DNA of 64,000 bases. It comes from the human T2T-CHM13v2.0 reference genome, Homo sapiens. The notes beneath the pieces are model-generated. The model worked only from the letters and a program-made list of their open reading frames with translations, was not told where the DNA came from and did no database searches. A program made the position numbers and the translations under genes. Where the stretch lies: NCBI RefSeq assembly GCF_009914755.1, contig NC_060933.1. The stretch is one strand, 5' to 3'. Positions within the stretch are counted from its first letter, which is position 1; each line of letters begins with the position of its first letter. Shown here in pieces: positions 7,817 through 53,158 of the stretch.

Positions 7817-8155
<339 letters not shown>

Positions 8156-9390
8156 TGAATTTTTATTTTTTAATGTATTGATCTAAAGTAATAATGGCAT
8201 TTAAGATTACTTCTGTTAAATATAAATGCATTAGCATGTTTATCCAACCTTTTTCCCTCCTGAAACTTTCACCATTTCTAAACACCAGTAATTATACTTA
8301 TTTTGTAATGTTGTTGATATAGTCTTGAGTTTTTTAATTTAATAATTTTATTTCTTATGTTTACACCTAGTGTTTTGATTCAAATAAATTAACAATCACT
8401 TTTTTCCTAACCATTGTACCCATAGTAGTTTAAAGCTAATTCTGCATTTGAGTTAATTTAATTTGAATTAATTTAGCCATCATCATTATCCTTTTTAATA
8501 ATTTTCCACATATTTGCTTCCTTATTGTGATTCATTTTTATTGAAGCTACAATCACAGTAAATTCAACAAAAGATATTTACATATTTGAGAAGATACATC
8601 TTTTACATTTACACTGGAATGGTTACTTCATTAAAGAAATCTTGGGTCAAATAATTTTTTCTCCAAGTTTTGTAGAAATTGTGTTTTGCTTTTTAGTAGC
8701 TATAATGGCCCAGATAAAATTGAAGGAAAAAGGATTATTTGTTTACTGTCTTAGTGATGTGCTTTTATCAATCTAGAGTTCACAAACTGATAATTAACAT
8801 GAAAAATATCATAAAAATTAATTTCTGCCAAAAATGGAATAAAAATTTCCTATTCTCAAATTTTAAGAAAAGGAAAGACTGATTTTTTTTTTTCATAACA
8901 ACATAGCCATCATCCAGTAAACACTTAAATTGACTTTAAACTTTCCCAATTAATCAGTGACAGCTTCACGTTAGTGCCTGAAGCATTTCAAAATCAGCCA
9001 ATTAGTGACTTTTCCATGCTTCTGAAAGTTATCCAATCATCAGTAGCCTCTGTCTAGTGACCACATGCCCATGCCTGAAAATCAGGCAACCCCTAAACAC
9101 TAAAAAAATCTGTGAACATGAAGCTTTCCCAAAATCTATGCAAAATCACATCCTTGTTTGGAGAACTGGGCTTTGAGGTCATATCAAGCTCTTGCTTAAC
9201 AAGAAATAACTACGTCTTTTTATTTTTACTTTTTGGTGGTAGTGGGCCATTCTGATGCATGTTTCCAGATCTGCATTTTTCATTAATATACATTAGATTA
9301 CATGAAGCTGAAGAAAGAGAAGAAAGTCATGAGAGGGGAACCTGCATTGGGAGAGGAACATATGGATCAAAGCACAATCTTCCAAGTGAG

Positions 9391-11145
9391 TTAGTTAGTC
9401 TATTTGTGCTGCTAAAACAGAATATCTAAGACTGAATAATTTATAAAGAACAGAAATCTGTTTCTCACAGCTCCAAGGCTGAGAAGTCCAAGATCAAGAT
9501 GCCCCAACTTTGGGTGTCTGATGAGAACCTTCTTCTCGTATCCTCACATAGCAAAAGGGCAAGCTAGCCAAATGCTGTCCTTAACCTCGTTGACAAAGAA
9601 GAGCCTTCATGGTCTAATCACCATTTAAAGGCCTCACCTGTTAACACAATCATGTTGGCCATACTTAATTTTTTTTTTCTCACCAGAAATCATTTTATTT
9701 ATTTTTTCTTTTCTCCAGTTTTATTTTATGTTCATGGGGTACCTATGCAGGTTTACCATTTGAGTAAATTGCATGTTGCTGGGATTTGTTGTACAAATGA
9801 TTTCATCACACAGATAGTGAGCACAGCACCTGATAGGTAGTTTTTCAACCTTCACCCTCCTCCTAACCTCTCCCCTCAAGTAGGCCTCTGTGTCTATGGT
9901 TTCTTTTTGCCCATGTGTACTTAATGTTTAGCTCCCACTTGTAAGCAAGAACATGCAGTATTTGGTTTTCTGTTCCTGCATTAATTCACTTAGGGTAATG
10001 GCCTCCAGCTGCATCTATGTTGCTGCAAAGGACATGATTACAGTTTTTTGTTGTTGCTGTTGTTTCATGGCTGCATAGTATGTCATGGGTGTATATGTAC
10101 TACATTTTATTTATTCAGTCCACCATTGATGGGCTAGGTTTATTCCATGTCTTTGCTATTGTTAATAGTACGTTTATGAACATACAGGTACATGTGTCTT
10201 TTTGGTAGAAAAATTTCTATTGCTTTGGTTATATAACCAGTAATGGGATCATTGGGTTGAATGGTAGTTCTGTTTTAAGTTCTTTGAGAAATCTCCAAAC
10301 TGCTTTCCACAGTGGCTGAACTAATTTACATTCCCACCAGCAGTGTATAAGCATCCTTTTTCTCTGCAATGTCACCAGCATCTGTTATTTTTTGACTTTT
10401 CAATAATAGCCATTTTGACTGGTATGAGATGATATCTCATTATGGTTTTGATTTGCATTTCTCTAATGATGTTTTGTTGAGCATTTTTTCACGTGCTTGA
10501 TGGCTGCATGTATGTCTTCTTTTGAGAAGTATCTGTTGATGCCTTTTGCCCATTTTTTAATGGTTTGCTTTTTGTTTTGGTGGGGGATTTTTTGTTTTGT
10601 TTTTTGTTTGTTTTGCTTGATTTGTTTAAATCCCTCATGGATTCTGGATATTAAACCTTTGTCAGATGCACGGTTGCAAATATTTTCTTCCTTTATGTAG
10701 GCTGTCTGTTTAATCTGTTGAAATTTTCTTTTGCTGTTTAAAAGCTCTTTAGTTAGGTCCCACTTTTCTATTTCTGTTTCCATTGCAATTGCTTTTGGAG
10801 ATTTTATCATGAAATGTTTGCCAAGGCCTAGGTCCAGAATGGTATTTCCAAGGTATTTTGCTAGAGTTTTTATAGTGATAGGTCTTACGTTTAAGTCTTT
10901 AATCCATTTTGAGTTGATTTTTGAATACGGTATAAAAAAGGGGTCCAGTTTCAATTCTCTGCATATGGCTAGCCAGTTATCCCAGAACCATTTATTGAAT
11001 AGAGAGTTCTTCCCCATTGTTTGCTTTCATCAACTTTGTTGAAGATCAGATGTTGTAGGTATGAAAATTTATTTCTGGGTTCTCTAACCTGTTCCATTGG
11101 TCTATTACACCTGATTCTCGAAGTGGACACTTTCAAACCACAGTA
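9391..11145 (-). mobile_element. MaLR solo LTR (MSTC/MSTD-like) split by an L1: parts 9391-~9668 and ~11106-11145
   Basis: ttagtctatttgtgctgctaaaacagaatatctaagactg...aagtccaagatcaag, resuming as cctgattctcgaagtggacactttcaaaccacagta. 5-bp TSD GTGAG at 9386-9390 and 11146-11150. Confidence 0.8.
9670..11105 (-). mobile_element. 5'-truncated L1PA15/16-like element (3' UTR and ORF2 C-terminus)
   Basis: T-rich tail, then antisense L1PA16-type 3' UTR. ORF 10463-11017 (-) resembles ORF2 (SLFNKWFWDNWLAICRELKLDP). Confidence 0.9.
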
Positions 11146-12079
11146 GTGAGTACGGAATTAAACACATTCCATTTAGTCAGACAAAAAACAGACTAGAAAG
11201 GACAAATCGCAAAACACGGAGCTCTTCTGGAGTATTGGTACCCCTGGTAACCATTGCCTAAGAACAACTTACCAGCTAGAAAGTCCAAGGCCCTTAAAAG
11301 CCTCTAGAAAAGAAAAGGAGAGAGGAGTTGAAGTGTGAGAACTAAAGTGTGAAAATAATGCCTTCACTTGTGATAAAATGAAAAACAAGTGGGAATTTTT
11401 CTATGAGCTTAGGTAATGGTGGACTCATTACTTCTTACATATTACAAGGTGAATATAAATCAAACAGTATGCCTTTGAATTTCAAGAAGCCCATAAAAGT
11501 CAGATGATTTTATAATAGTTTTCCTGGTACATTAAGCAAGCCACACCTAAGTGAGTGGGCATAAGGATATCATTGAAGACAAGGTATGTGTCATCTGCCA
11601 GCCTTGAGGGGAAATTGTTGAATCTCAGAAGAAATAAATAATATGCTATATTGGGGCTCTTGCCAGATACAGTTCAGCTTGGTCATGCAGGGTGAAAATA
11701 GAACATATAAGAAGTAGCACCCTCTCTGTGTTCATTTTTACATTTCTTATGCTTCATGTCAAAGCTCATTTGACTCCAAAAAAAGAAGAAAGAAAAATCC
11801 CAAAGAGAAACATTTTATCCACAAGGAACACCAAGAAAAATGCAGCTTAACAAAGAAGTGACAAATCCCTTTGGTCCTCTAACGAGTGTCTTCAACAAAA
11901 CAAATAAAGCAAACAGTCAAAGCGGAGCTTGACCCAAGTTATAATGACTACCTGGAGAGCTGTTTTGTTTTACATATCCCAATTCAATTTCACATTATTC
12001 CAAGGCACATAACAGACTTGGATACAATCATGAAACGTTCACACCTGAAAAATAATCTCTGTAGAACTTGTTTTCAATG

Positions 12080-12190
12080 ATTTTCAGGTCAGAGACCCCT
12101 TTGAAAATCTGCAAAACTATGGAAGTTTATTTCAGAAAACAAAACAAAACAAAAAAAAAAAAAACCTTAACATTTTAGGGATTTCAGGTT
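12080..12190. mobile_element. hAT-Charlie MITE relic, MER103-like
   Basis: ggtcagagacccctttgaaaatctgcaaaactatgga resembles MER103C. Confidence 0.45.
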
Positions 12191-12440
12191 CTAAAGAAGA
12201 TTTTTATAGCAAATGTCACAGGCGTTTGAATGACAGTAACTCCATTTTGAATAGGGGCTGGATAAAACGAGGCTAAGATCTGCTGGGTTGCATTCCCAGG
12301 AAGTTAGGCATTCTTAGCCACAGTATGAGATAGGAGGTTGGCACAAGATACAGGTCGCAAAGACCGTGCTGATAAAACAGGATGTGATAAAGAAGCCAGC
12401 CAAAATCAAGATGGCGAAGAAAGTAACCTCTGGTTGTCCT

Positions 12441-12854
12441 TGTCAGGCCTCTGAGCCTAAGCTAAGCCATCATATCCCCTGTGACCTGCACGTACACATC
12501 CAGATGGCCGGTTTCTGCCTTAACTGGTGACATTCCACCACAAAAGAAGTGAAAATGCCCTCTTCCTGCCTTAATTGATGACGTTGTCTTGTGAAATTCC
12601 TTCTCCTGGCTCATCCTGGCTCAAAAGCTCCCCTACTGAGCACCTTGTGACTCCCACTCCTGCCCACCAGAGAACAACCCCTCTTTGACTGTAATTTTCC
12701 TTTACCTACCCAAATCTTATAAAACGGCCCCACCCTTATCTCCCTTTGCTGACTCTTTTTTCGGACTCGGCCCACCTGCACCCAGGTGAAATAAACAGCC
12801 TTGTTGCTCACACAAAGCCTGTTTGGTGGTCTCTTCACACGGACTCGAGTGGAA
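12441..12854 (+). mobile_element. HERV-H LTR7 solo LTR (LTR7up-like)
   Basis: tgtcaggcctctgagcctaagctaagccatcatatcccctgtgacctgcacgtacacatccagatggcc...gcctgtttggtggtctcttcacacggac. Perfect 5-bp TSD GTCCT at 12436-12440 and 12855-12859. Confidence 0.95.
12540..12795 (+). promoter_or_regulatory. LTR7 promoter motifs: SOX-like ACAAAAGA (12540-12547), TATAAAA (12718-12724), KLF/GC box GGCCCCACCC (12726-12735), AATAAA (12790-12795)
   Basis: Motifs read directly. Their roles are assumed from known LTR7 promoter organisation; activity at this copy is untested. Confidence 0.6.
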
Positions 12855-14178
12855 GTCCTCACTGTTCTTTATATGCTAACTATAATGCATTAGCATGCTA
12901 AAAGACACTCCCATCAGCGCCACTGCAGTTTACAGATACTTTTGGCAATGTCGGGATATTACCCTATATGGACTAAATAGGGAAGAAGCTCCGGGTTCCA
13001 TGAACTCTCCACCCCCTTCCTGCAAAACTCATGAACAATCCACCACTTATTTAGCATATGACTAACAAGTAACCATAAAAACAGCCAACCAGCAATCCTT
13101 AGGGCTATTCTGCCTGTACATAGCCATTCTTTTGTTTCTTTATTTCTCACATAAACTTGATTTCACTTTCCTCTGTGGACTCCCCCGCCCTCTGCAAATT
13201 CTTTCTTGCACAGGATCCTAGAACCCTCTCTTAGAGTCTGGATCAGGACCCCTTTCTGGTAACACAAACAATAAAGAAATTTGTTGTTCTCTATGTTCTC
13301 ATAGCAGTGTTTTCTGTGTTTTTTTTAATGGGTAAACAAAACACAAAGATTTTTCACTGAGGTTACAGATTATTTAACAATGATGCCTAGGTTATATTTG
13401 TTGTCATTGTTTTGTAAATCTAGGCCATCTTATAGTCTCCCCAGAGATTGCATCAGCAAGCATTCTACTCACTTGGTTCATGTTTACTGTATTTAAATCC
13501 TGACTGTACCATAAATTAGAAAAGAAAAGAGAATATTAAAAATTAGATCTAAATTAATTCCCACACTCCAGTTCAACATTCCTCATCCTAATAACATGAG
13601 ATGTTTTAAAGACTTCAAATTGAGAGAATAGTTTGTATCTTAGATTTGATTCATGAGGAGATGAGCTTCTATCATCAGTTTGAGTCTAATCACCCTGTGC
13701 CTTCTTCCTCCCAAAGACTGGGACTGAATTACATGGCTTCAAGTTGTAGAAGAACATTACATGGATCTCATTTAAGGCTATCACAAGAATTCACAGACCT
13801 AAACCAAATATACTATTTTCTTTAATTGTATTTTTCATTTCTACCAAATACTTGTTTCATCTTCACTCTTATTACCATAGTACTGTCTATGATTATCTCA
13901 AACCTGCTAAGTAGCTTGCAGATTAAGCTCAAACATGTCAACATGAATGTTAAAGCCTTTTAAAACATTTTAACTTCTCAATTTTCAGGTTCCTGTTTCC
14001 CTGCTAAAACACAAGTAAGAGACATAGGACTGTCCCATGTCCTAATCTACTAAGAAAGTGAAAATACCAATGATGTCAATTCAGTCATGGTGCTGGTATA
14101 CTCATTTCAATACAAGACTCTTTATATAACTTGTATGACGTATATTAACCTTGCTCTTGCAGAAAGAGGTACCACTTT

Positions 14179-14247
14179 ATTTTTTTATTTTTATTTATTT
14201 ATTTATTTATTTTTGATATGGAGTCTCGCTCTGTCACCAGGCTGGAG
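14179..14247 (-). mobile_element. Severely 5'-truncated Alu (last ~33 nt plus tail)
   Basis: (TTTA)n tail then tgatatggagtctcgctctgtcaccaggctggag. Degenerate TSD gaggtaccacttt (14166-14178) / gagataacacttt (14248-14260). Confidence 0.85.
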
Positions 14248-14269
14248 GAGATAACACTTTCATGTAGAA

Positions 14270-14600
14270 CAGGGGTCGTCCCCAAACCTTGGGCCACAGA
14301 CTGGCATCACAGGAACCGGATTCACAGCAGGAAGTGAGTGGCTGGTGAGGGAGCATTACCGCCTGAGCTCCCCCTCCTGTCAGATCAGAAAGGGCCTTAG
14401 ATTCTCATAGGAGCGCAAACCCTATTATGAACTGGGCATGCGAGGGATCCAGGTTGTGTGCTCCTTATGAGAATCTAATAATGCTTGATGAGCTGAGGTG
14501 AAACAGTTTCATCCCAAAACTATCCCCCTCCACATCCCCTCCATGGAAAAATTGTCTTCCATGAAACGGTTGCTAGTGCCAAAAATGTTGGGGACCACTG
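14270..14600 (+). mobile_element. MER1B hAT-Charlie DNA transposon
   Basis: Termini caggggtc...ggggaccactg and internal ttagattctcataggagcgcaaaccctatt. Perfect 8-bp TSD ATGTAGAA at 14262-14269 and 14601-14608. Confidence 0.92.
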
Positions 14601-15250
14601 ATGTAGAATCAAAAGGTAGGAGATGGGGAGAAAATTCCCTACTTTGGCTATAGGTCTTATATCAATTATGATGTGAACTCTCTGAGAGTGGCCTAAAATT
14701 GAAGTCAGTCAGATGAAATTCTACAACTGAACAACAGGTAGCAAATATTCAGCTATTATTTTTTATATTAACAATTGGTCTGGGTCACTAAAATCCACCT
14801 AATTTTTTTCTTATGCTAAACACAAAGAAAAGGGCGTACAATATTTATTCATAAAAAGCCCATGTCTATATTCCCATCAAAACAAGGGAGATTATTATAT
14901 AAATAATATTCATTTACATATTTATTACTCCAAACTATTTTACATAAAAGTGACAAATGTAAAATGGCTTTGGCAAAGCATAAATAAACATATAAACAAA
15001 TAAAAGGAAAACGTAAAGATTTTGGCTCTCAACATATGAGAGCAATTTTAGACTTCTATGACCAGGTATACGGGCACAAACAGTGTCATGATGTCTCAGT
15101 CTTTCTCCGTCCACCTTTGGCCAATGGGTCTGCTCTATTTTCAGGTGAGCTTTTCTTTGTTGCGACAATATGTCCCCTAGTATTTCCAGGCTAAATTCAA
15201 TCCTTCCAGAAATAGCCCGCAGAAAAAACGAAACTATAATCTCAAAGGAT

Positions 15251-15254
<4 letters not shown>

Positions 15255-15294
<40 letters not shown>
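15255..15294. repeat. (AC)20 microsatellite
   Basis: Uninterrupted AC run. Confidence 0.97.
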
Positions 15295-15301
<7 letters not shown>

Positions 15302-15919
15302 CCCTGCACACAAAAATCAACAACCCGGAATTGATTTTCATTGGCCAGATTTAGTCACATTCTTATCTTTGGAGTTACAGAAAAAGAAGAAAGTCCAATA
15401 CAATAGCATGCACTGAAAATGCTAACTGGTAATTACCCAAGGAAAATTAACGTTATGTTAATAAAATAAAATTATGAATATCTATTGTTGATTCCAAATA
15501 GATGCAGAGAAAATAATAGATATCCACAATTGTTTTACTCCTCCCAGGTGTTTACTGCTCCTACATTATTCACTTCTTAAACTATAAGCTTAGACATACG
15601 AATTAAACTAAGCTCCTTAAATGTGTCATGTTCTCTTATCTCTGGAACATTAAGCATTTAATTTTCATCACCTGAAATGCATTCTCCTTCCCTTTTTCTT
15701 TGGCTAAATCTTAATTCTCTTTTGTATATTAGTTTAGAAATATTTTTCTTGATCCCACTTACATTGTGTACTTAGCCTCATTTTCTATCTTCCACACTTC
15801 CACAATGGTTGTACAATTTTTACACTCACACTAGTAATGAATGACCCTTCCTATTGCTCCACATCCTCTCCAGCATTTGGTGTTTTCCGTGTTCTGCATT
15901 TTGGCCATTCTAGTCTTCT

Positions 15920-16042
15920 ATCGCTAGACTATAAGCTGTATAAAGGAAGAGATGTGGCCTTCCTTAACCACTAGTATCTCTAATCTCAACCGAGTGCCCA
16001 ATGCAATAGCAGATAATAAATATTTTAACAAATGAATGAATC
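15920..16042 (+). mobile_element. L2 3' end relic, preceded by a short antisense L1M piece (~15806-15913)
   Basis: tagactataagctg...aataaatattttaacaaatgaatgaa matches the L2 terminus pattern. Confidence 0.6.
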
Positions 16043-19000
16043 ATCTGAGTAACTTTTAAGTCACCAGAAAAATTGACTTCCTCTTAATAATTTCTGCAAA
16101 CAAGAACAGAGAGCTGACTGCATATGGACTTCACAATTGAAGTTAATTTTAGTCCAGTAATCCCATAAAGAAGTGACAAAAATAACAAAAGCAAACAAAA
16201 AACCCTAAAACACAGTTGCAGAATTGCCTAATGAGGAATTTATATTATTTTGTTTATTTTATCTTTTTCCAATCCTGGCTCTCTCCTAAAAGTCATATGA
16301 AGCATCCCTAAAATCATACATTCAGCAACGCCACACCAGATGTATGATTTATGATGACTGGAAGAGTAGATAGGTAATTTAAGCCACCCCTTGAAATGGA
16401 TCCAAAGCCATAACTCTTATTCTTAGGCTATAGGCTTTTTCTTGTCATATCTATCCCAAAAGGATGTTCAGGCTACCATGGTGACTAAGATTAAAGGTAT
16501 ATGTCTTCTGCTCTTTTTTTTTGCTTTTCTTGCAATTTTTCAAAGGAAATTAATTACGTACATTTCAGACACATGCTTGCATCTCTCCTCAATATCAACA
16601 AGGAATAATAGCACATCACAATAAAAATAGACTATGTTAATTTTGGTCAACTTCTAATTTTTTAAAAATAGATGTATAAGTAAAACTCCTGGAGTTCATT
16701 TTCATGTTTCCTATTGATCTCCACCTGCCACAGATTCTTGTCTACTATATGATAGCATTTCATTAAAAAAGAAGATATTTCAATTACTCTTGCCAATATT
16801 TTTTGTTTGTCTCAACCCAATTAGTAATATGTCAATTACATGGAAATCCAGAAATGTTGCGGAATTTCAGGTTTCTGTATTCCCAGTTGCTCTGATCCTC
16901 TTAATCGATACACAGTAATTAATCAAGATAGCTTGTTGATTTGCTGCTGTTTGTGTGGGAATACCTTTAGTGGCTATAGGACATTTCCTCTAACTCTGCT
17001 AAGCAGAGGTCACTAAATGAACCCAGAGCCATTAAAATAGTATCTCCCTGCTATGTTGGCATACTATGGGTACAGCTCTCCCTTCTACTGAGCTTTTAGA
17101 TTCTCTTTTAAATTCTAAGACACATTTTTCTACAACAGAAGACAAGGTTAAAACTATGGCTAATAAAACATTGTGATTCTAGTTTATGTTGGACAAGAGA
17201 GAGCTTTGATAAATTCCTCTTATTGATTACTTAGGTGTACAGTCTTAGTAAAAACACTTTCAGGTTTTCCTCTTACGTTCCTCATTCAACTTGTGTTGCT
17301 TTTACTTCCATAGTCATTGATGTCTACTTGGGAAGTGTCACATTATGGTAAAATAAGCGATGAATGAGGTAGTCTAAAGTGTGTTTAAAAACTATCTCTT
17401 TACCAACCAGCCGTCCACCCTCTTCAGATATGTTTCTTAGTTTGGTAAGTCACTGGTTTGTAAATTTTTATTATTTTTCTAACTACCATTCATCGTAGAA
17501 ATACTCATATTATATGTTGATCTCTGCTCCATGTATATTTGCCTTCTTCCTCTAATCATCATATGAAATATAGTCTGTTTTGGTTAACAAAGTACATGAT
17601 ATCTAACATTCTGTTAAAACATAATTGGTAAGAATATATTTACCATTTTAAATTTTAAGTAGGCTCTGGGTATTTATTTCTGAAGTCCTTACATTACATG
17701 TTAAAATGGTCTTTTAAAATAATGTTTGCTTTTAAAAATAATTTACCAATTTTATCCTTGTGATTTTAGTTTTATTTCTGAACTAAATAAGTTGAATTCT
17801 TGTTGGCTAGTTACTATAATACTGTTTAATAATCATCTAATTAAACATTTATTGGTGTTCATTATTAAATATTAATTTTATTTTTAGAGCCATGCATTTT
17901 TTTCTGATGCCAAATATCATCTCAGGTCATGCAAATCTCATAGACCCTACCTAGTATGTCCAAATAATACAATATCCCTAATTTTTAAGGTGAATTTTTC
18001 CCACCCTCCTTAGAGTTATGCAGTTTTCAATAAATTACATTGAATTAAAATTTTTAATAAGTAATTTGAAGGGTTGATTTTTTTAAAGGTGTACAGTGAA
18101 AAAAGGCATAATGTCTATCACATTTTGGGTGTTCAGTAGATCAGTAGATAGTGAATAAATAATGGAATAAATTATATTACTTGCAGAGAAAACTTCATTT
18201 TTGCTATTCCTAAATCTCTGCTTTTGGGTAATCTCCTTCGCCAGGATTACATTTTTTCTTAGTGTGTTTCTGCAATATTCCTTCTAGCATGGGTATATAA
18301 AGAAAAGACATTTCTTCAACTTATTAGCCTGCTGATATATAACCTATGATTATGTCGGTGTACTTCATATTATTTTTAGGGTTTATTTAATATAAAAACA
18401 ACAGATGATTTCTAATACTACAAGAATTTTTGGCCTATTAAATTATAAGTTCCTTTCCTAGTGCAAATGCGGGTCATTCATTTGTGCCACCTCTAAACAT
18501 AATGTGAAAACTTGTAATGCTTTCTAATGTGTTTCTTTAGAGTCACCTTCACTTGATTTGTTAAATAAATTTATTTGTTTGATCATTAAAATACCTGTGA
18601 TGTTGCTATACATTGTACAGAATAAAGAAGATGCTTTAGGTGAAAGGTTTATGACGTACATATTTTTACACTAATTGATCTAAAAGAATTAACTGCAGTT
18701 ACACCCTAATTTGTTTTCAAAATTATTTTTTAAAAGCTGTCATGGACTAAAATACCCACATCTAAACCTACTCAGATTTTTCTTATTAAATTTTAAAGAA
18801 CATATTTTAGAAGTATATTTTTATGTTTTCAAAGCCTTAAATATCAATAAAGTAAAAATGAACATGCCAGTCCAACTCCAGTGGGAACCTGTCTTATGAA
18901 GGAGATCAATGACGATTCTAACTAAGCTTCTAAGAAAAGAAAAATCATCTGTGAGCTAGAAGATCTGCATTTCAACAGGCTGTTTATATATTTACTTACA

Positions 19001-19649
19001 TTGAAAAGCAGCCAAATGCTGTGGTTTTTACTTCTTAGCTTTTCCAAATAGGATTTTTTTTAATCCTTCATAAAAATGCACTTTAAAAATAGTTAAATTG
19101 TGTGCATTTTTTTGCCTTTTCATATTTAAGGAAAATAGGGCATATATAATATGGAGCAAACACAAAATCATAAACAGTACATTAAATTGAAGTAAATGAT
19201 GCATTGCATTTAACATTTTACTTTCAAAGTTGTGTAGAAATAGAATATGACCTAAGAAATGGGAAACTAGGCCAATTGGGGTTTTGTGTGATGATAGTTT
19301 CCCAGTGCTTATGTGATAACAGGAAGATATCAAAATACATTGTCAGAAATTCTTCCCTCCACTGCTATCATCCACAGTATCAAAAAAATAAGTGGTGAAA
19401 GAATGGCAGCAAAATACTTTTCCAGGGCACTCAATGATGCAGTGACTTGGAGGGAATCAATAAGACAGAAAGATGAGAGAGCCAAATGTATTCTAGCTAC
19501 GGAGTAAAACTTCTTAATCTTCCTTAAAAGTCTCTTGTGGTCAGCTAGTAGAACTACAAAACCTGGAAGCCTTTACTGGGATGCCATGAGGGAAGGATGC
19601 ATGAAAGTGTAAGCTAATTCTGACAAAAACCTCTTGACTGGGAGCACAG

Positions 19650-19810
19650 AACTGTTTAGAAAGAACACTGGAGTCTCAGAATTCGTAATTGCAGTACGGA
19701 CTTTTTCAAAGACTTGTCTTTATGTTTTGGGGGAAACTACATATTTTGAGACTCTTTTCTCATCTATGAAATGAAGCTGATAATATGTATACCACAGGAC
19801 ATATTTTTGG
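19650..19810 (+). mobile_element. MIR relic
   Basis: agaaagaacactggagtc...ttttctcatctatgaaatgaagctgataata resembles the MIR core. Confidence 0.5.
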
Positions 19811-20154
19811 AAGTGCATAATACAGTGTTTTAAAATTACCGTATAATTCAATTATGGTAGAGGTTTCTACCATTTTTAAGAATAATCTCTAAAGCATGTG
19901 AATTTTAATGGTTTTCAACTAATAATTTAAAAAATAGACTTTTAAACAAGTTCTTACCTTATGATGATACACTTATGGATAAATTATCAAGCCTTGAAGT
20001 ACATAAAATAATTCACAACTTCAGAAAAAAAATCTCACTTTTGTCAGATTTTCTTTTTAGGGGGATAGTAATAAGGGTAGCGTACTCCTTAGGTTGAGTT
20101 AACCAATTTCTGACAAGTTATGTAGCAAACAAGGATGATTTAAAAAGAATTACT

Positions 20155-27058: not shown

Positions 27059-28030
27059 TGAAAGAGTTCAGTATATGTCACTCCGAAATATTACCTCTGT
27101 ATTAGCCTGTTCTTGTACTACTATAAAAAAATACATGAGACTGGGTAATTTATGAAGAAAAGAGGTTTAACTGGCTCACGGTTCTGCAGACTGTACAGAA
27201 AGCATACTGGCTCCTGATTCTGGGAAGTCCTCAGGAAGTTTCCAATCATGGCAAAAGGCAAAGGGAGAGCCAGGCACTTCACATGGCCAGAGCAGCAGAA
27301 ACACGGAGCGGGAAGGTGCTACACACTTTTCAACAACCAGGTCTCTTGAGAATTCACTCACTATCATGAGTGACAACACCAAAGGGGATGGTGTTAAGCC
27401 ATGAGAACTGCCCCCATGATCCAATTACCTCCCACCAGGCCCCACCTCCAACATTGGGGATTACAATTTGGCATGAGATTTGCGCCGGGACATGGAGCCA
27501 AGCCATATCAATCTCTATGGCATATGACTATTTTGAAGTAAATGCACTTTAAAAATGGCAGGTGCAAAAATAATGCTGATGTTCTTTCCTCTTAAAAGCA
27601 GGAGATAAAATTCTCACATAAAAAATGCCCTCTCTATACCACAAGGAAAACATCATTCTTATCATCAAGGGCAAAAAGTTGAGACTAAGGGACATCTGTA
27701 AACACAAACTTTGTTAAACTTACCCTTACCTTTCTAGTCACTTTTCCACCCAATTAACTCTCTTAACCTAAATCCCTTTGCCTTTTCACATTTTCACAAT
27801 TGACCACTCTTTGTCAAAACCATTACATAAGCATTCAACGCTAACTGCTTCTTTGGGTCTTCATTTGTTTAGGGGATCTTCATTTCTTTATGAAAGCTCT
27901 TGTGTCATGTAAAACTCATGTTAAACAAATGTGCATGCATGTTCCTTGTTAATCTGTCTTATGTCAATTTAATTCTCAAGGCCAGCACAAAACCTTAAAA
28001 TAATAAAGCTAAAAATATGCCTCTACTACA
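27059..28030 (+). mobile_element. MER34-like ERV1 solo LTR interrupted by MSTA
   Basis: tgaaagagttcagtatatgtcactccgaaata... resumes tatggcatatgactattttgaag... and ends ctctactaca. Confidence 0.7.
27098..27510 (-). mobile_element. MSTA-like MaLR solo LTR
   Basis: tgtattagcctgttcttg...gccaagccatatca. TSD acctc (27093-27097) / atctc (27511-27515). Confidence 0.9.
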
Positions 28031-28200
28031 CTGGCATAGTAAAATGAGAACAGGCTTTGAGCAGGGATACAGGACTAGAAAGACATATCCTACTGGCTAT
28101 GTGTCCTTTGTTCAGTTACTTAAATTCTCTGTGCTTATTCAACTTTAAAATGGTTATGAATATAATACTTACCTTCTGTGTTAATGTAAATGTTAGCCAT
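28031..28200 (+). mobile_element. MIR relic
   Basis: ggcatagtaaaatgagaacaggctttgag...tactggctatgtgtcctttgttcagttacttaaattctctgtgctt. Confidence 0.55.
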
Positions 28201-28464
28201 GATCTCTCTCTCTCTTCCCTCTCTTTCTCTCTCTCTCTCATCTAATCAAGCAAAGTATTTGGCCCATTCTAGTTATTCTAAAGGTTATAGTGGACATAGC
28301 TGTTCTTATTATGGTATATTGGCAGGCACTGTATGAAATACATTCCATTTATTATTTAAACAAACTATCTATTTTTGATGATCTGGAAAGACTAAAATGA
28401 TGAGGAACCAAAGCTCAGACAGTACCTTATTTTACTGTCTATTTGGGTAAATAGATAACCTAAA

Positions 28465-53083: not shown

Positions 53084-53158
53084 TCTGGTCTTCCCATGAA
53101 GTAGCCATTCTTTTATTTCTTTACTTTCTTTAAAAACAAAAACAAACAAACAAAAACC
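53084..53158 (+). mobile_element. Tiny retroposed insertion: MER41-like LTR 3' fragment plus A-rich tail
   Basis: cccatgaagtagccattcttttatttctttactttctt followed by taaaaacaaaaacaaacaaacaaaaac. Flanked by exact 17-bp atttagtgcaaatcctg at 53067-53083 and 53159-53175. Confidence 0.8.

What the first reader, a model, noticed from the sequence alone, without database searches (positions are those of the whole stretch)
12214..13264. Chimeric regulatory cassette: LTR7up-type HERV-H solo LTR inside a MER41B LTR, same orientation
Seen: both TSDs are perfect (CAAA for MER41B, GTCCT for LTR7). LTR7 keeps CACAAAAGAAG, TATA and the CCCACCC box. The downstream MER41B half reads CATAAA (13150-13155) where the consensus has AATAAA. 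Known: LTR7, especially the LTR7up group with this SOX2/3 motif, acts as promoter or enhancer in pluripotent cells, and MER41B copies can be STAT1-bound interferon-gamma enhancers. Inference: a composite element that could combine pluripotency and cytokine inputs and launch a plus-strand lncRNA reading through the weakened MER41B polyA signal. This is the best candidate for an active element in the window.
Basis: partly seen in the sequence, partly recalled or inferred. Interest (0 to 1): 0.72.

Follow-up and report, generated by a model that had tools for sequence, protein, structure and literature searches.

The report
Older LTR7d2 nested in decayed MER41B
One old retroviral promoter fragment sits inside another in a gene-poor stretch of human chromosome 9, but it belongs to a weakly active subfamily, its host has lost the paired interferon-response sites, and it is likely an ordinary weak stem-cell enhancer that makes no stable RNA.

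Summary
The nesting is real: a 414-bp HERV-H solo LTR (12441-12854, TSD GTCCT) splits a MER41B-type LTR (TSD CAAA). The interpretation mostly fails. This copy is in Carter et al. 2022 (hg38 chr9:11038673-11039079, sequence matched) as LTR7d2, not LTR7up. In H1 cells it is NANOG- and H3K27ac-positive but negative for RNA, GRO-seq, H3K4me3, KLF4, SOX2 and OCT4. CACAAAAGAAG is not diagnostic: 7d copies carry one, 7up copies two; this has one. The host's tandem STAT1 sites are decayed (TTCCATGAA, TTCCTGCAA), while 28 of 29 nearest paralogs keep at least one TTCYNRGAA site; no IFN-gamma-induced trophoblast enhancer boundary falls here. CATAAA is real, but the LTR7's own AATAAA (12790) and another at 13270 bracket it. 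About three LTR7-family insertions into MER41 are expected by area alone. What survives: hESC enhancer-type marks (H3K4me1 peak centred on the junction), a RefSeq silencer over the 5' half, and TEAD/ETS/YY1/IRF-like motifs. Verdict: ordinary, catalogued, probably a weak hESC enhancer. Interest 0.15.

The parts
12210..12213 (+). MER41 target-site duplication CAAA, left copy
12214..12435 (+). 5' part of MER41B-type LTR (U3)
   Evidence: up to 87% identity to paralogs, 40 of 40 listed hits; colinear with the 3' half in paralogs
12157..12451 (.). RefSeq silencer, 295 bp; length equals a Sharpr-MPRA region (source inferred from length only)
   Evidence: hub annotation; 295-bp design
12290..12304 (+). 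TEAD-like GCATTCC overlapping TTC-N4-GAA and ETS-like GGAAGT, at the centre of the silencer interval
   Evidence: TEAD word in 11 of 29 paralogs, both words in 2 of 29; motif names recalled
12408..12416 (+). YY1-like AAGATGGCG with CpG kept
   Evidence: exact word in 1 of 25 aligned paralogs; motif name recalled
12436..12440 (+). HERV-H target-site duplication GTCCT, left copy
12441..12854 (+). HERV-H solo LTR, subfamily LTR7d2, 414 bp
12539..12549 (+). single CACAAAAGAAG, the copy shared by 7d and 7up; the extra upstream 7up copy is absent
12718..12735 (+). LTR7 TATA box and CCCCACCC (KLF-like) box, shared with near relatives
12790..12795 (+). LTR7 own poly(A) signal AATAAA, intact
12855..12859 (+). 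HERV-H target-site duplication GTCCT, right copy
12860..13264 (+). 3' part of MER41B-type LTR; more diverged than any of its 29 nearest paralogs
12962..12971 (+). CArG-like CCCTATATGG (SRF-type site of MER41), kept
   Evidence: same word in 9 of 29 paralogs; SRF binding to MER41
12996..13025 (+). decayed tandem GAS, 21-bp spacing: TTCCATGAA (weak) and TTCCTGCAA (broken)
13150..13155 (+). MER41 poly(A) position reading CATAAA
13161..13170 (-). IRF-like GAAAGTGAAA
   Evidence: full 10-mer in 1 of 29 paralogs, 9-mer core in 19 of 29; motif name recalled
13265..13268 (+). MER41 target-site duplication CAAA, right copy
13270..13330 (+). flanking AATAAA followed by a 73% T+G tract (candidate poly(A) site)

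Best explanation
This is an LTR7d2 solo LTR inserted into an older, decayed MER41B-type LTR, and it likely acts as no more than a weak NANOG-bound, enhancer-type site in embryonic stem cells, likely without a stable transcript or an interferon-gamma response. History: a MER41 provirus integrated at CAAA and was reduced to one LTR; later a HERV-H 7d2 provirus integrated inside it at GTCCT and was reduced to one LTR (order shown by the nested TSDs; the recombination steps are inferred from the known mechanism; 7d subfamilies spread about 14-20 Mya per Carter et al.). Mechanism: NANOG binding and histone acetylation of the kind seen at about half of non-7up LTR7 copies open the site (peaks shown in published data; causal chain inferred). 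Without the extra 7up block the TATA box is not productively used (no RNA, GRO-seq or H3K4me3 call in H1). The nesting is likely chance.
For: Same sequence listed as 7d2/7down solo with NANOG=1, H3K27ac=1 and 0 for RNA, GRO, chimeric transcript, KLF4, SOX2, OCT4, MED1, H3K4me3, H3K4me1, KAP1, H3K9me3. NANOG marks 45% of 7d2 and H3K27ac 48% of non-7up copies, so this profile is typical. One motif copy and 414 bp; 29 of 29 nearest copies 412-417 bp with at most one AAAAGAAG; tree separates them from 12 double-motif references at 100/100; author-labelled 7up copies show two motifs, 7down one. GAS pair fails TTCYNRGAA at both sites while 28 of 29 paralogs keep one and 11 of 29 both. No start or end between 11,037,000 and 11,039,999 in the lists of constitutive and IFNG-stimulated MER41 enhancers of trophoblast stem cells. 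Host 3' half 80.3% to its nearest paralogs versus 84.0% among them: no sign of constraint. Expected LTR7-family insertions in MER41 by area: 3.2. 4 of 29 paralogs also carry inserts.
Against: An H3K4me1 peak in hESC spans about window 11661-13184 and is centred at the MER41B/LTR7 junction, though Carter's H1 table gives H3K4me1=0. A RefSeq silencer covers the 5' half, so something measurable sits there. The 7d reporter was weak, not dead (about 13-fold over empty vector, my arithmetic). An IRF-like 10-mer and a CArG-like box are kept. The ChIP-STARR-seq activity files were cut from the stored supplement, so reporter activity in hESC was not seen. All chromatin data are from a few cell lines and from a different haplotype than CHM13 (3 base differences in the LTR).
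Confidence: 0.72

Rival explanations
1. A true composite element: TEAD/ETS/YY1/GATA-like sites in the MER41B 5' half, placed directly upstream of the LTR7d2 U3, would cooperate with it, giving enhancer activity in hESC and repression in other cell types.
For: Silencer interval centred at 12304 on GCATTCCCAGGAAGT; TEAD plus ETS words together in only 2 of 29 paralogs and the CpG-bearing YY1 word in 1 of 25; H3K4me1 peak centred at 12422, the junction; 5 CpG in the 5' half, the top of the paralog range 0-5.
Against: Short motifs picked after the fact; peak centres next to a 94%-identical multicopy LTR may be shifted by read mappability (inferred); host more diverged than its kin; no gene within the window and only a pseudogene and a predicted lncRNA within 100 kb (hub annotation); source of the silencer call not verified.
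Confidence: 0.15
2. Inert relic: the published peaks come from reads of other LTR7 copies or from incidental binding, and the element does nothing.
For: 29 nearest copies are 93.5-95.3% identical; 0 for most marks; H3K4me1 disagrees between two studies; RefSeq lists no enhancer here.
Against: Peaks in two independent studies overlap the site; the H3K4me1 peak extends about 550 bp into unique flank; the silencer call implies a measured reporter effect.
Confidence: 0.1
3. One reading: an LTR7up promoter fused to an IFN-gamma-inducible MER41B enhancer launches a plus-strand lncRNA through the weakened poly(A) signal.
For: TATA, CCCACCC box, one SOX-like motif and CATAAA are present; one TTC-N3-GAA and an IRF-like site remain; NANOG and H3K27ac peaks.
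Against: Subfamily is 7d2; no RNA, GRO-seq, chimeric transcript or H3K4me3; tandem GAS decayed, and about 0.3 TTC-N3-GAA per 632 bp is background in this window; AATAAA at 12790 and 13270; donor-like sites reach only 6 of 9 matches; no annotated transcript.
Confidence: 0.03

Closest known systems
LTR7d2 solo LTRs of HERV-H (Carter et al. 2022, PMC8912925)
   Same: This very copy is a listed member; length, single SOX-like motif, NANOG and H3K27ac without transcription are typical of the subfamily.
   Different: It lies inside a MER41B-type LTR, which the table does not record; the CHM13 allele differs from hg38 at 3 of the first 125 bases.
LTR7up1/2 promoters of pluripotent cells
   Same: TATA, CCCACCC box, AATAAA and the downstream CACAAAAGAAG are shared.
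   Different: Lacks the extra upstream block with the second motif that the reporter assay found necessary; 88-90% identity; outside the clade; no KLF4, SOX2, H3K4me3 or RNA.
IFN-gamma-inducible MER41B enhancers (Schmid and Bucher 2010, PMC2897888; Du et al. 2023, PMC10069462)
   Same: Same architecture: homologous GAS positions 21 bp apart, CArG-like box, IRF-like site, 4-bp TSD, about 630 bp without the insert.
   Different: Second GAS broken, first weak; split by a 414-bp insert; not found in the IFNG-stimulated list for trophoblast stem cells.
Dimorphic HERV-H loci (Thomas et al. 2018, PMC6298018)
   Same: Solo LTR7 in hg38 of the class that study screened in 279 genomes.
   Different: No hit for 9p23 or these coordinates in 10 supplementary files; the paper reports only two HERV-H solo-to-provirus candidates.

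Membership tests
LTR7up (7up1/2) | Block 2b with the additional 8-bp AAAAGAAG SOX2/3 motif (two copies of the motif, about 450 bp) | tested here: not met
   one copy, 414 bp; labelled 7up copies have two, 7down one
LTR7up (7up1/2) | Falls in the 7up clade | tested here: not met
   split 100/100 from 12 references (references chosen by the double-motif pattern, 11 matched by approximate position, strand and solo status to 7up1 rows); published assignment 7d2
LTR7up (7up1/2) | KLF4 binding, H3K4me3 and transcription in hESC | tested here: not met
   all 0 in the published row for this copy; read from the table, not recomputed
LTR7d2 | Placement in 7d clade and lack of block 2b | tested here: met
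   d1 versus d2 rests on the authors' label
HERV-H solo LTR | Full LTR between a 5-bp TSD with no internal sequence | tested here: met
MER41B | About 630 bp LTR with two GAS positions 21 bp apart and a 4-bp TSD | tested here: met
   222+5+405 = 632 bp; sites at 12996 and 13017. One near paralog (L038) maps by approximate offset into a row labelled MER41B
MER41B | Best match to the MER41B model rather than MER41E or others | not testable with these tools
   no repeat library on hand; MER41E also has 21-bp GAS spacing
IFN-gamma-inducible MER41B enhancer | Intact tandem GAS | tested here: not met
   TTCCATGAA and TTCCTGCAA, neither fits TTCYNRGAA
IFN-gamma-inducible MER41B enhancer | STAT1 binding or H3K27ac gain after IFN-gamma | tested here: inconclusive
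   no boundary within 11,037,000-11,039,999 in one trophoblast list; a peak wider than that interval would be missed; HeLa, monocyte and macrophage data not seen
Sharpr-MPRA repressive region | 295-bp region from the Ernst et al. 2016 screen | tested here: inconclusive
   length matches and RefSeq uses that screen; the original paper was not held

The most novel reading that the evidence does not exclude
Nesting built a new switch: the MER41B 5' half supplies TEAD/ETS/YY1 sites that stand in for the block a 7d2 LTR lacks, so the junction works as an enhancer in pluripotent cells and a silencer elsewhere, with an IRF site on the far side adding cytokine input, and human haplotypes differ in its strength.
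Probability: 0.1. Interest if true: 0.45.

Novelty: already known. Interest (0 to 1): 0.15.

Why it matters
As it stands it matters little: one catalogued LTR7d2 copy with the usual weak marks in a gene desert. Two lessons carry over to other windows: a single CACAAAAGAAG does not identify LTR7up (count the copies and the length), and a MER41B label does not imply STAT1 response unless the tandem GAS is read. If the composite reading held, it would be a clean natural test of whether nested LTRs gain activity from each other, since the parts have sharp, datable borders.

Tried and rejected
LTR7up membership: rejected. STAT1 tandem site: rejected as intact. Read-through lncRNA: rejected on poly(A) signals and published RNA calls. 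Second LTR or proviral remnant of either element elsewhere in the window: none; only a 28-bp match at 53102. Structured RNA: no Rfam match in 8000-20000. Segmental copy of the nested arrangement: of 40 hits to the whole element only the window itself covers both families (top 40 of 6662 candidates scored). Dimorphic proviral allele: no hit in Thomas 2018 supplements (format not checked). Prior description of the nesting or of a link to 9p23 genes: searches LTR7+MER41+nested+insertion (3 listings), MER41B+YY1+silencer (1), LTR7/PTPRD/9p23 (109 papers, 12 listed) showed no title on this locus; none of those papers was opened. Ernst 2016 and Chuong 2016 were not held. hESC reporter activity could not be read because the stored file was cut. 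No primate genomes were available to date the insertions directly. CpG counts gave no clear signal: LTR7 8 versus 4-10, 3' half 4 versus 0-9.

Full report
Observation. The window reads as described. A host LTR runs from TGTCA at 12214 to TAACA at 13264 between two CAAA. An inner LTR runs from 12441 to 12854 between two GTCCT, on the same strand. Searches of the genome with the parts returned LTR copies that match only 12441-12854 or only the host halves (top 40 hits each). In the 29 host paralogs fetched (L032-L060) the two halves are colinear and, where the junction aligned (25 of 29), carry the target 5-mer once. A perfect 4-bp TSD is kept by 12 of 25 paralogs with both ends aligned, a 5-bp one by none. 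Among LTR7 relatives, 5' LTRs are followed by the primer-binding site and 3' LTRs preceded by the polypurine tract; the window copy has neither, so it is a solo LTR. The nesting and its order, MER41 first and HERV-H later, are therefore shown.

The inner LTR is not LTR7up. Carter et al. 2022 (PMC8912925; I read the abstract, sections 7-11, the file list, passages, and parts of supplements 1, 2, 5, 6) list a plus-strand solo LTR at hg38 chr9:11038673-11039079 as 7d2; their re-masking also says LTR7d2. The sequence under that name matches the window, including private changes, with three differences in the first 125 bases (window 12467, 12510, 12562; read by eye), so it is the same locus. The paper says that the SOX2/3 motif that matters is an 8-bp insertion in block 2b, present in 7up and 7u1, and that 7d1/2 lack block 2b. 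In their alignment, copies labelled 7up carry CACAAAAGAAG twice and copies labelled 7down once, the single copy aligning with the downstream 7up copy. The window LTR has one copy and 414 bp. Its 29 nearest relatives are 412-417 bp and 93.5-95.3% identical, 22 with one AAAAGAAG, 7 with none, 0 with two. Twelve double-motif references are 450-455 bp and 87.8-89.6% identical, and a tree splits them from the window copy and its relatives at 100/100. Caveat: those twelve were picked by the double-motif pattern (521 matches), so their motif count is circular; eleven agree in approximate position, strand and solo status with 7up1 rows seen, and one search gives the independent check. The d1/d2 distinction rests on the authors.

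Published activity of this copy. The row reads NANOG 1 and H3K27ac 1; RNA, GRO-seq, chimeric transcript, KAP1, OCT4, MED1, KLF4, FOXA1, FOXP1, SMAD1, SOX2, TCF4, ZNF534, ZNF90, H3K4me1, H3K4me3 and H3K9me3 are all 0. That is the ordinary profile: NANOG overlaps 45% of 7d2 copies, H3K27ac 48% of non-7up copies, and only 2% of non-7up copies are highly expressed. [quoted passage not shown] Barakat et al. 2018 (PMC6084406; passages and part of a cut supplement) list H3K4me1 regions at hg19 chr9:11037893-11038654 and 11038655-11039416, about window 11661-13184 with the join at 12422 (that hg19 and hg38 agree here is recalled, not tested). The NANOG, OCT4, H3K27ac and reporter-activity files lay beyond the cut and may bear on the claim.

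The host. Without the insert it is 632 bp, with two GAS-homologous positions 21 bp apart, the MER41B architecture described by Schmid and Bucher (PMC2897888, passages). One near paralog maps by approximate offset into a row labelled MER41B; MER41E, which has the same spacing, could not be excluded without a repeat library. The sites read TTCCATGAA (fits TTC-N3-GAA only) and TTCCTGCAA (broken). Of 29 paralogs, 28 keep at least one TTCYNRGAA site, 11 both, 20 at least one TTCCNGGAA; the window has none of either. A copy at C1:158.214 Mb with an intact pair, which I recall as the AIM2 enhancer, aligns in the same register; 757 intact pairs exist genome-wide against 55 for the reversed control. 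Du et al. 2023 (PMC10069462; passages, Table S4 part 1 of 4 and searches) list constitutive and IFNG-stimulated MER41 enhancers in trophoblast stem cells in GRCh38; no start or end lies in 11,037,000-11,039,999 (one file not searched; a wider peak would be missed). Against my reading: an IRF-like GAAAGTGAAA at 13161-13170 is complete here and in only 1 of 29 paralogs (core in 19 of 29), and the CArG-like box is kept (9 of 29). The 3' half averages 80.3% identity to its nearest paralogs while they average 84.0% among themselves, lowest 81.5%: it is decaying at least as fast as its kin.

Read-through. CATAAA at 13150 is real (AATAAA in 23 of 29 paralogs, CATAAA in 2). But a transcript from the LTR7 TATA would first meet the LTR's own AATAAA at 12790 and then an AATAAA at 13270 followed by a 73% T+G tract, 120 nt past CATAAA; further signals follow at 13535 and 14983. 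The best donor-like sites match 6 of 9 bases. No transcript is annotated and none was called in H1.

Is the nesting special? With 2,497 LTR7-family insertions and about 4 Mb of MER41, 3.2 such nestings are expected by area. Four of the 29 paralogs also carry inserts (two of them duplicates of one another; three with an Alu-like word).

The silencer. RefSeq's 12157-12451 is 295 bp, the size of Sharpr-MPRA regions, which were drawn from H1-hESC, HepG2, K562 and HUVEC and assayed in HepG2 and K562 (10.1101/099879, passages); RefSeq draws on that screen (PMC8744684, passages). The source is inferred from length only. Its centre, 12304, lies on GCATTCCCAGGAAGT; the TEAD-like and ETS-like words occur together in 2 of 29 paralogs and the YY1-like AAGATGGCG in 1 of 25 aligned (factor names recalled). 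This is the best lead for a composite function, but the motifs were picked after the fact and the only functional label on this half is repressive.

Mechanism and verdict. Shown: nested structure, subfamily, motif states, published peaks. Inferred: recombination to solo LTRs, NANOG-driven opening as a weak enhancer-type site, no productive promoter, no STAT1 response, chance nesting (0.72). The copy is already catalogued with its regulatory calls; I found no paper on the nesting (listings only). Thomas et al. 2018 (PMC6298018; passages and supplement search) give no sign of a proviral allele. A 2025 review notes that co-opted HERV-H roles involve proviruses rather than solo LTRs, which may act as enhancers but await validation (PMC12228294, passages). 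Interest 0.15.

Noticed in passing
window 12467, 12510, 12562: The hg38 copy printed in the Carter alignment differs from the CHM13 window at three of the first 125 bases of the LTR (read by eye), more than expected between two human haplotypes; a deep haplotype or gene conversion is possible.
   Followed up: no
window 12157-12451: The RefSeq silencer is exactly 295 bp and centred on the TEAD/ETS-like words of the MER41B 5' half; probably a Sharpr-MPRA region chosen from open chromatin.
   Followed up: partly
window 13161-13170: IRF-like GAAAGTGAAA on the minus strand, complete here and in only 1 of 29 paralogs; another copy lies at 14054 on the plus strand.
   Followed up: partly
window 27595-28125: The RefSeq enhancer overlaps an A+T-rich stretch that looks like another old LTR by eye; family not determined. 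A THE1/MST-like LTR appears to start near 28461 (recalled resemblance).
   Followed up: no
L045, L046, L049, L056: Four MER41 paralogs carry inserts of about 130-380 bp in their 5' half; L045 and L046 are near-identical duplicates on chromosome 16.
   Followed up: partly
G000:C3:38087400-38087564: One LTR7 copy shows four successive CACAAAAGAAGTG units, an expanded block array.
   Followed up: no
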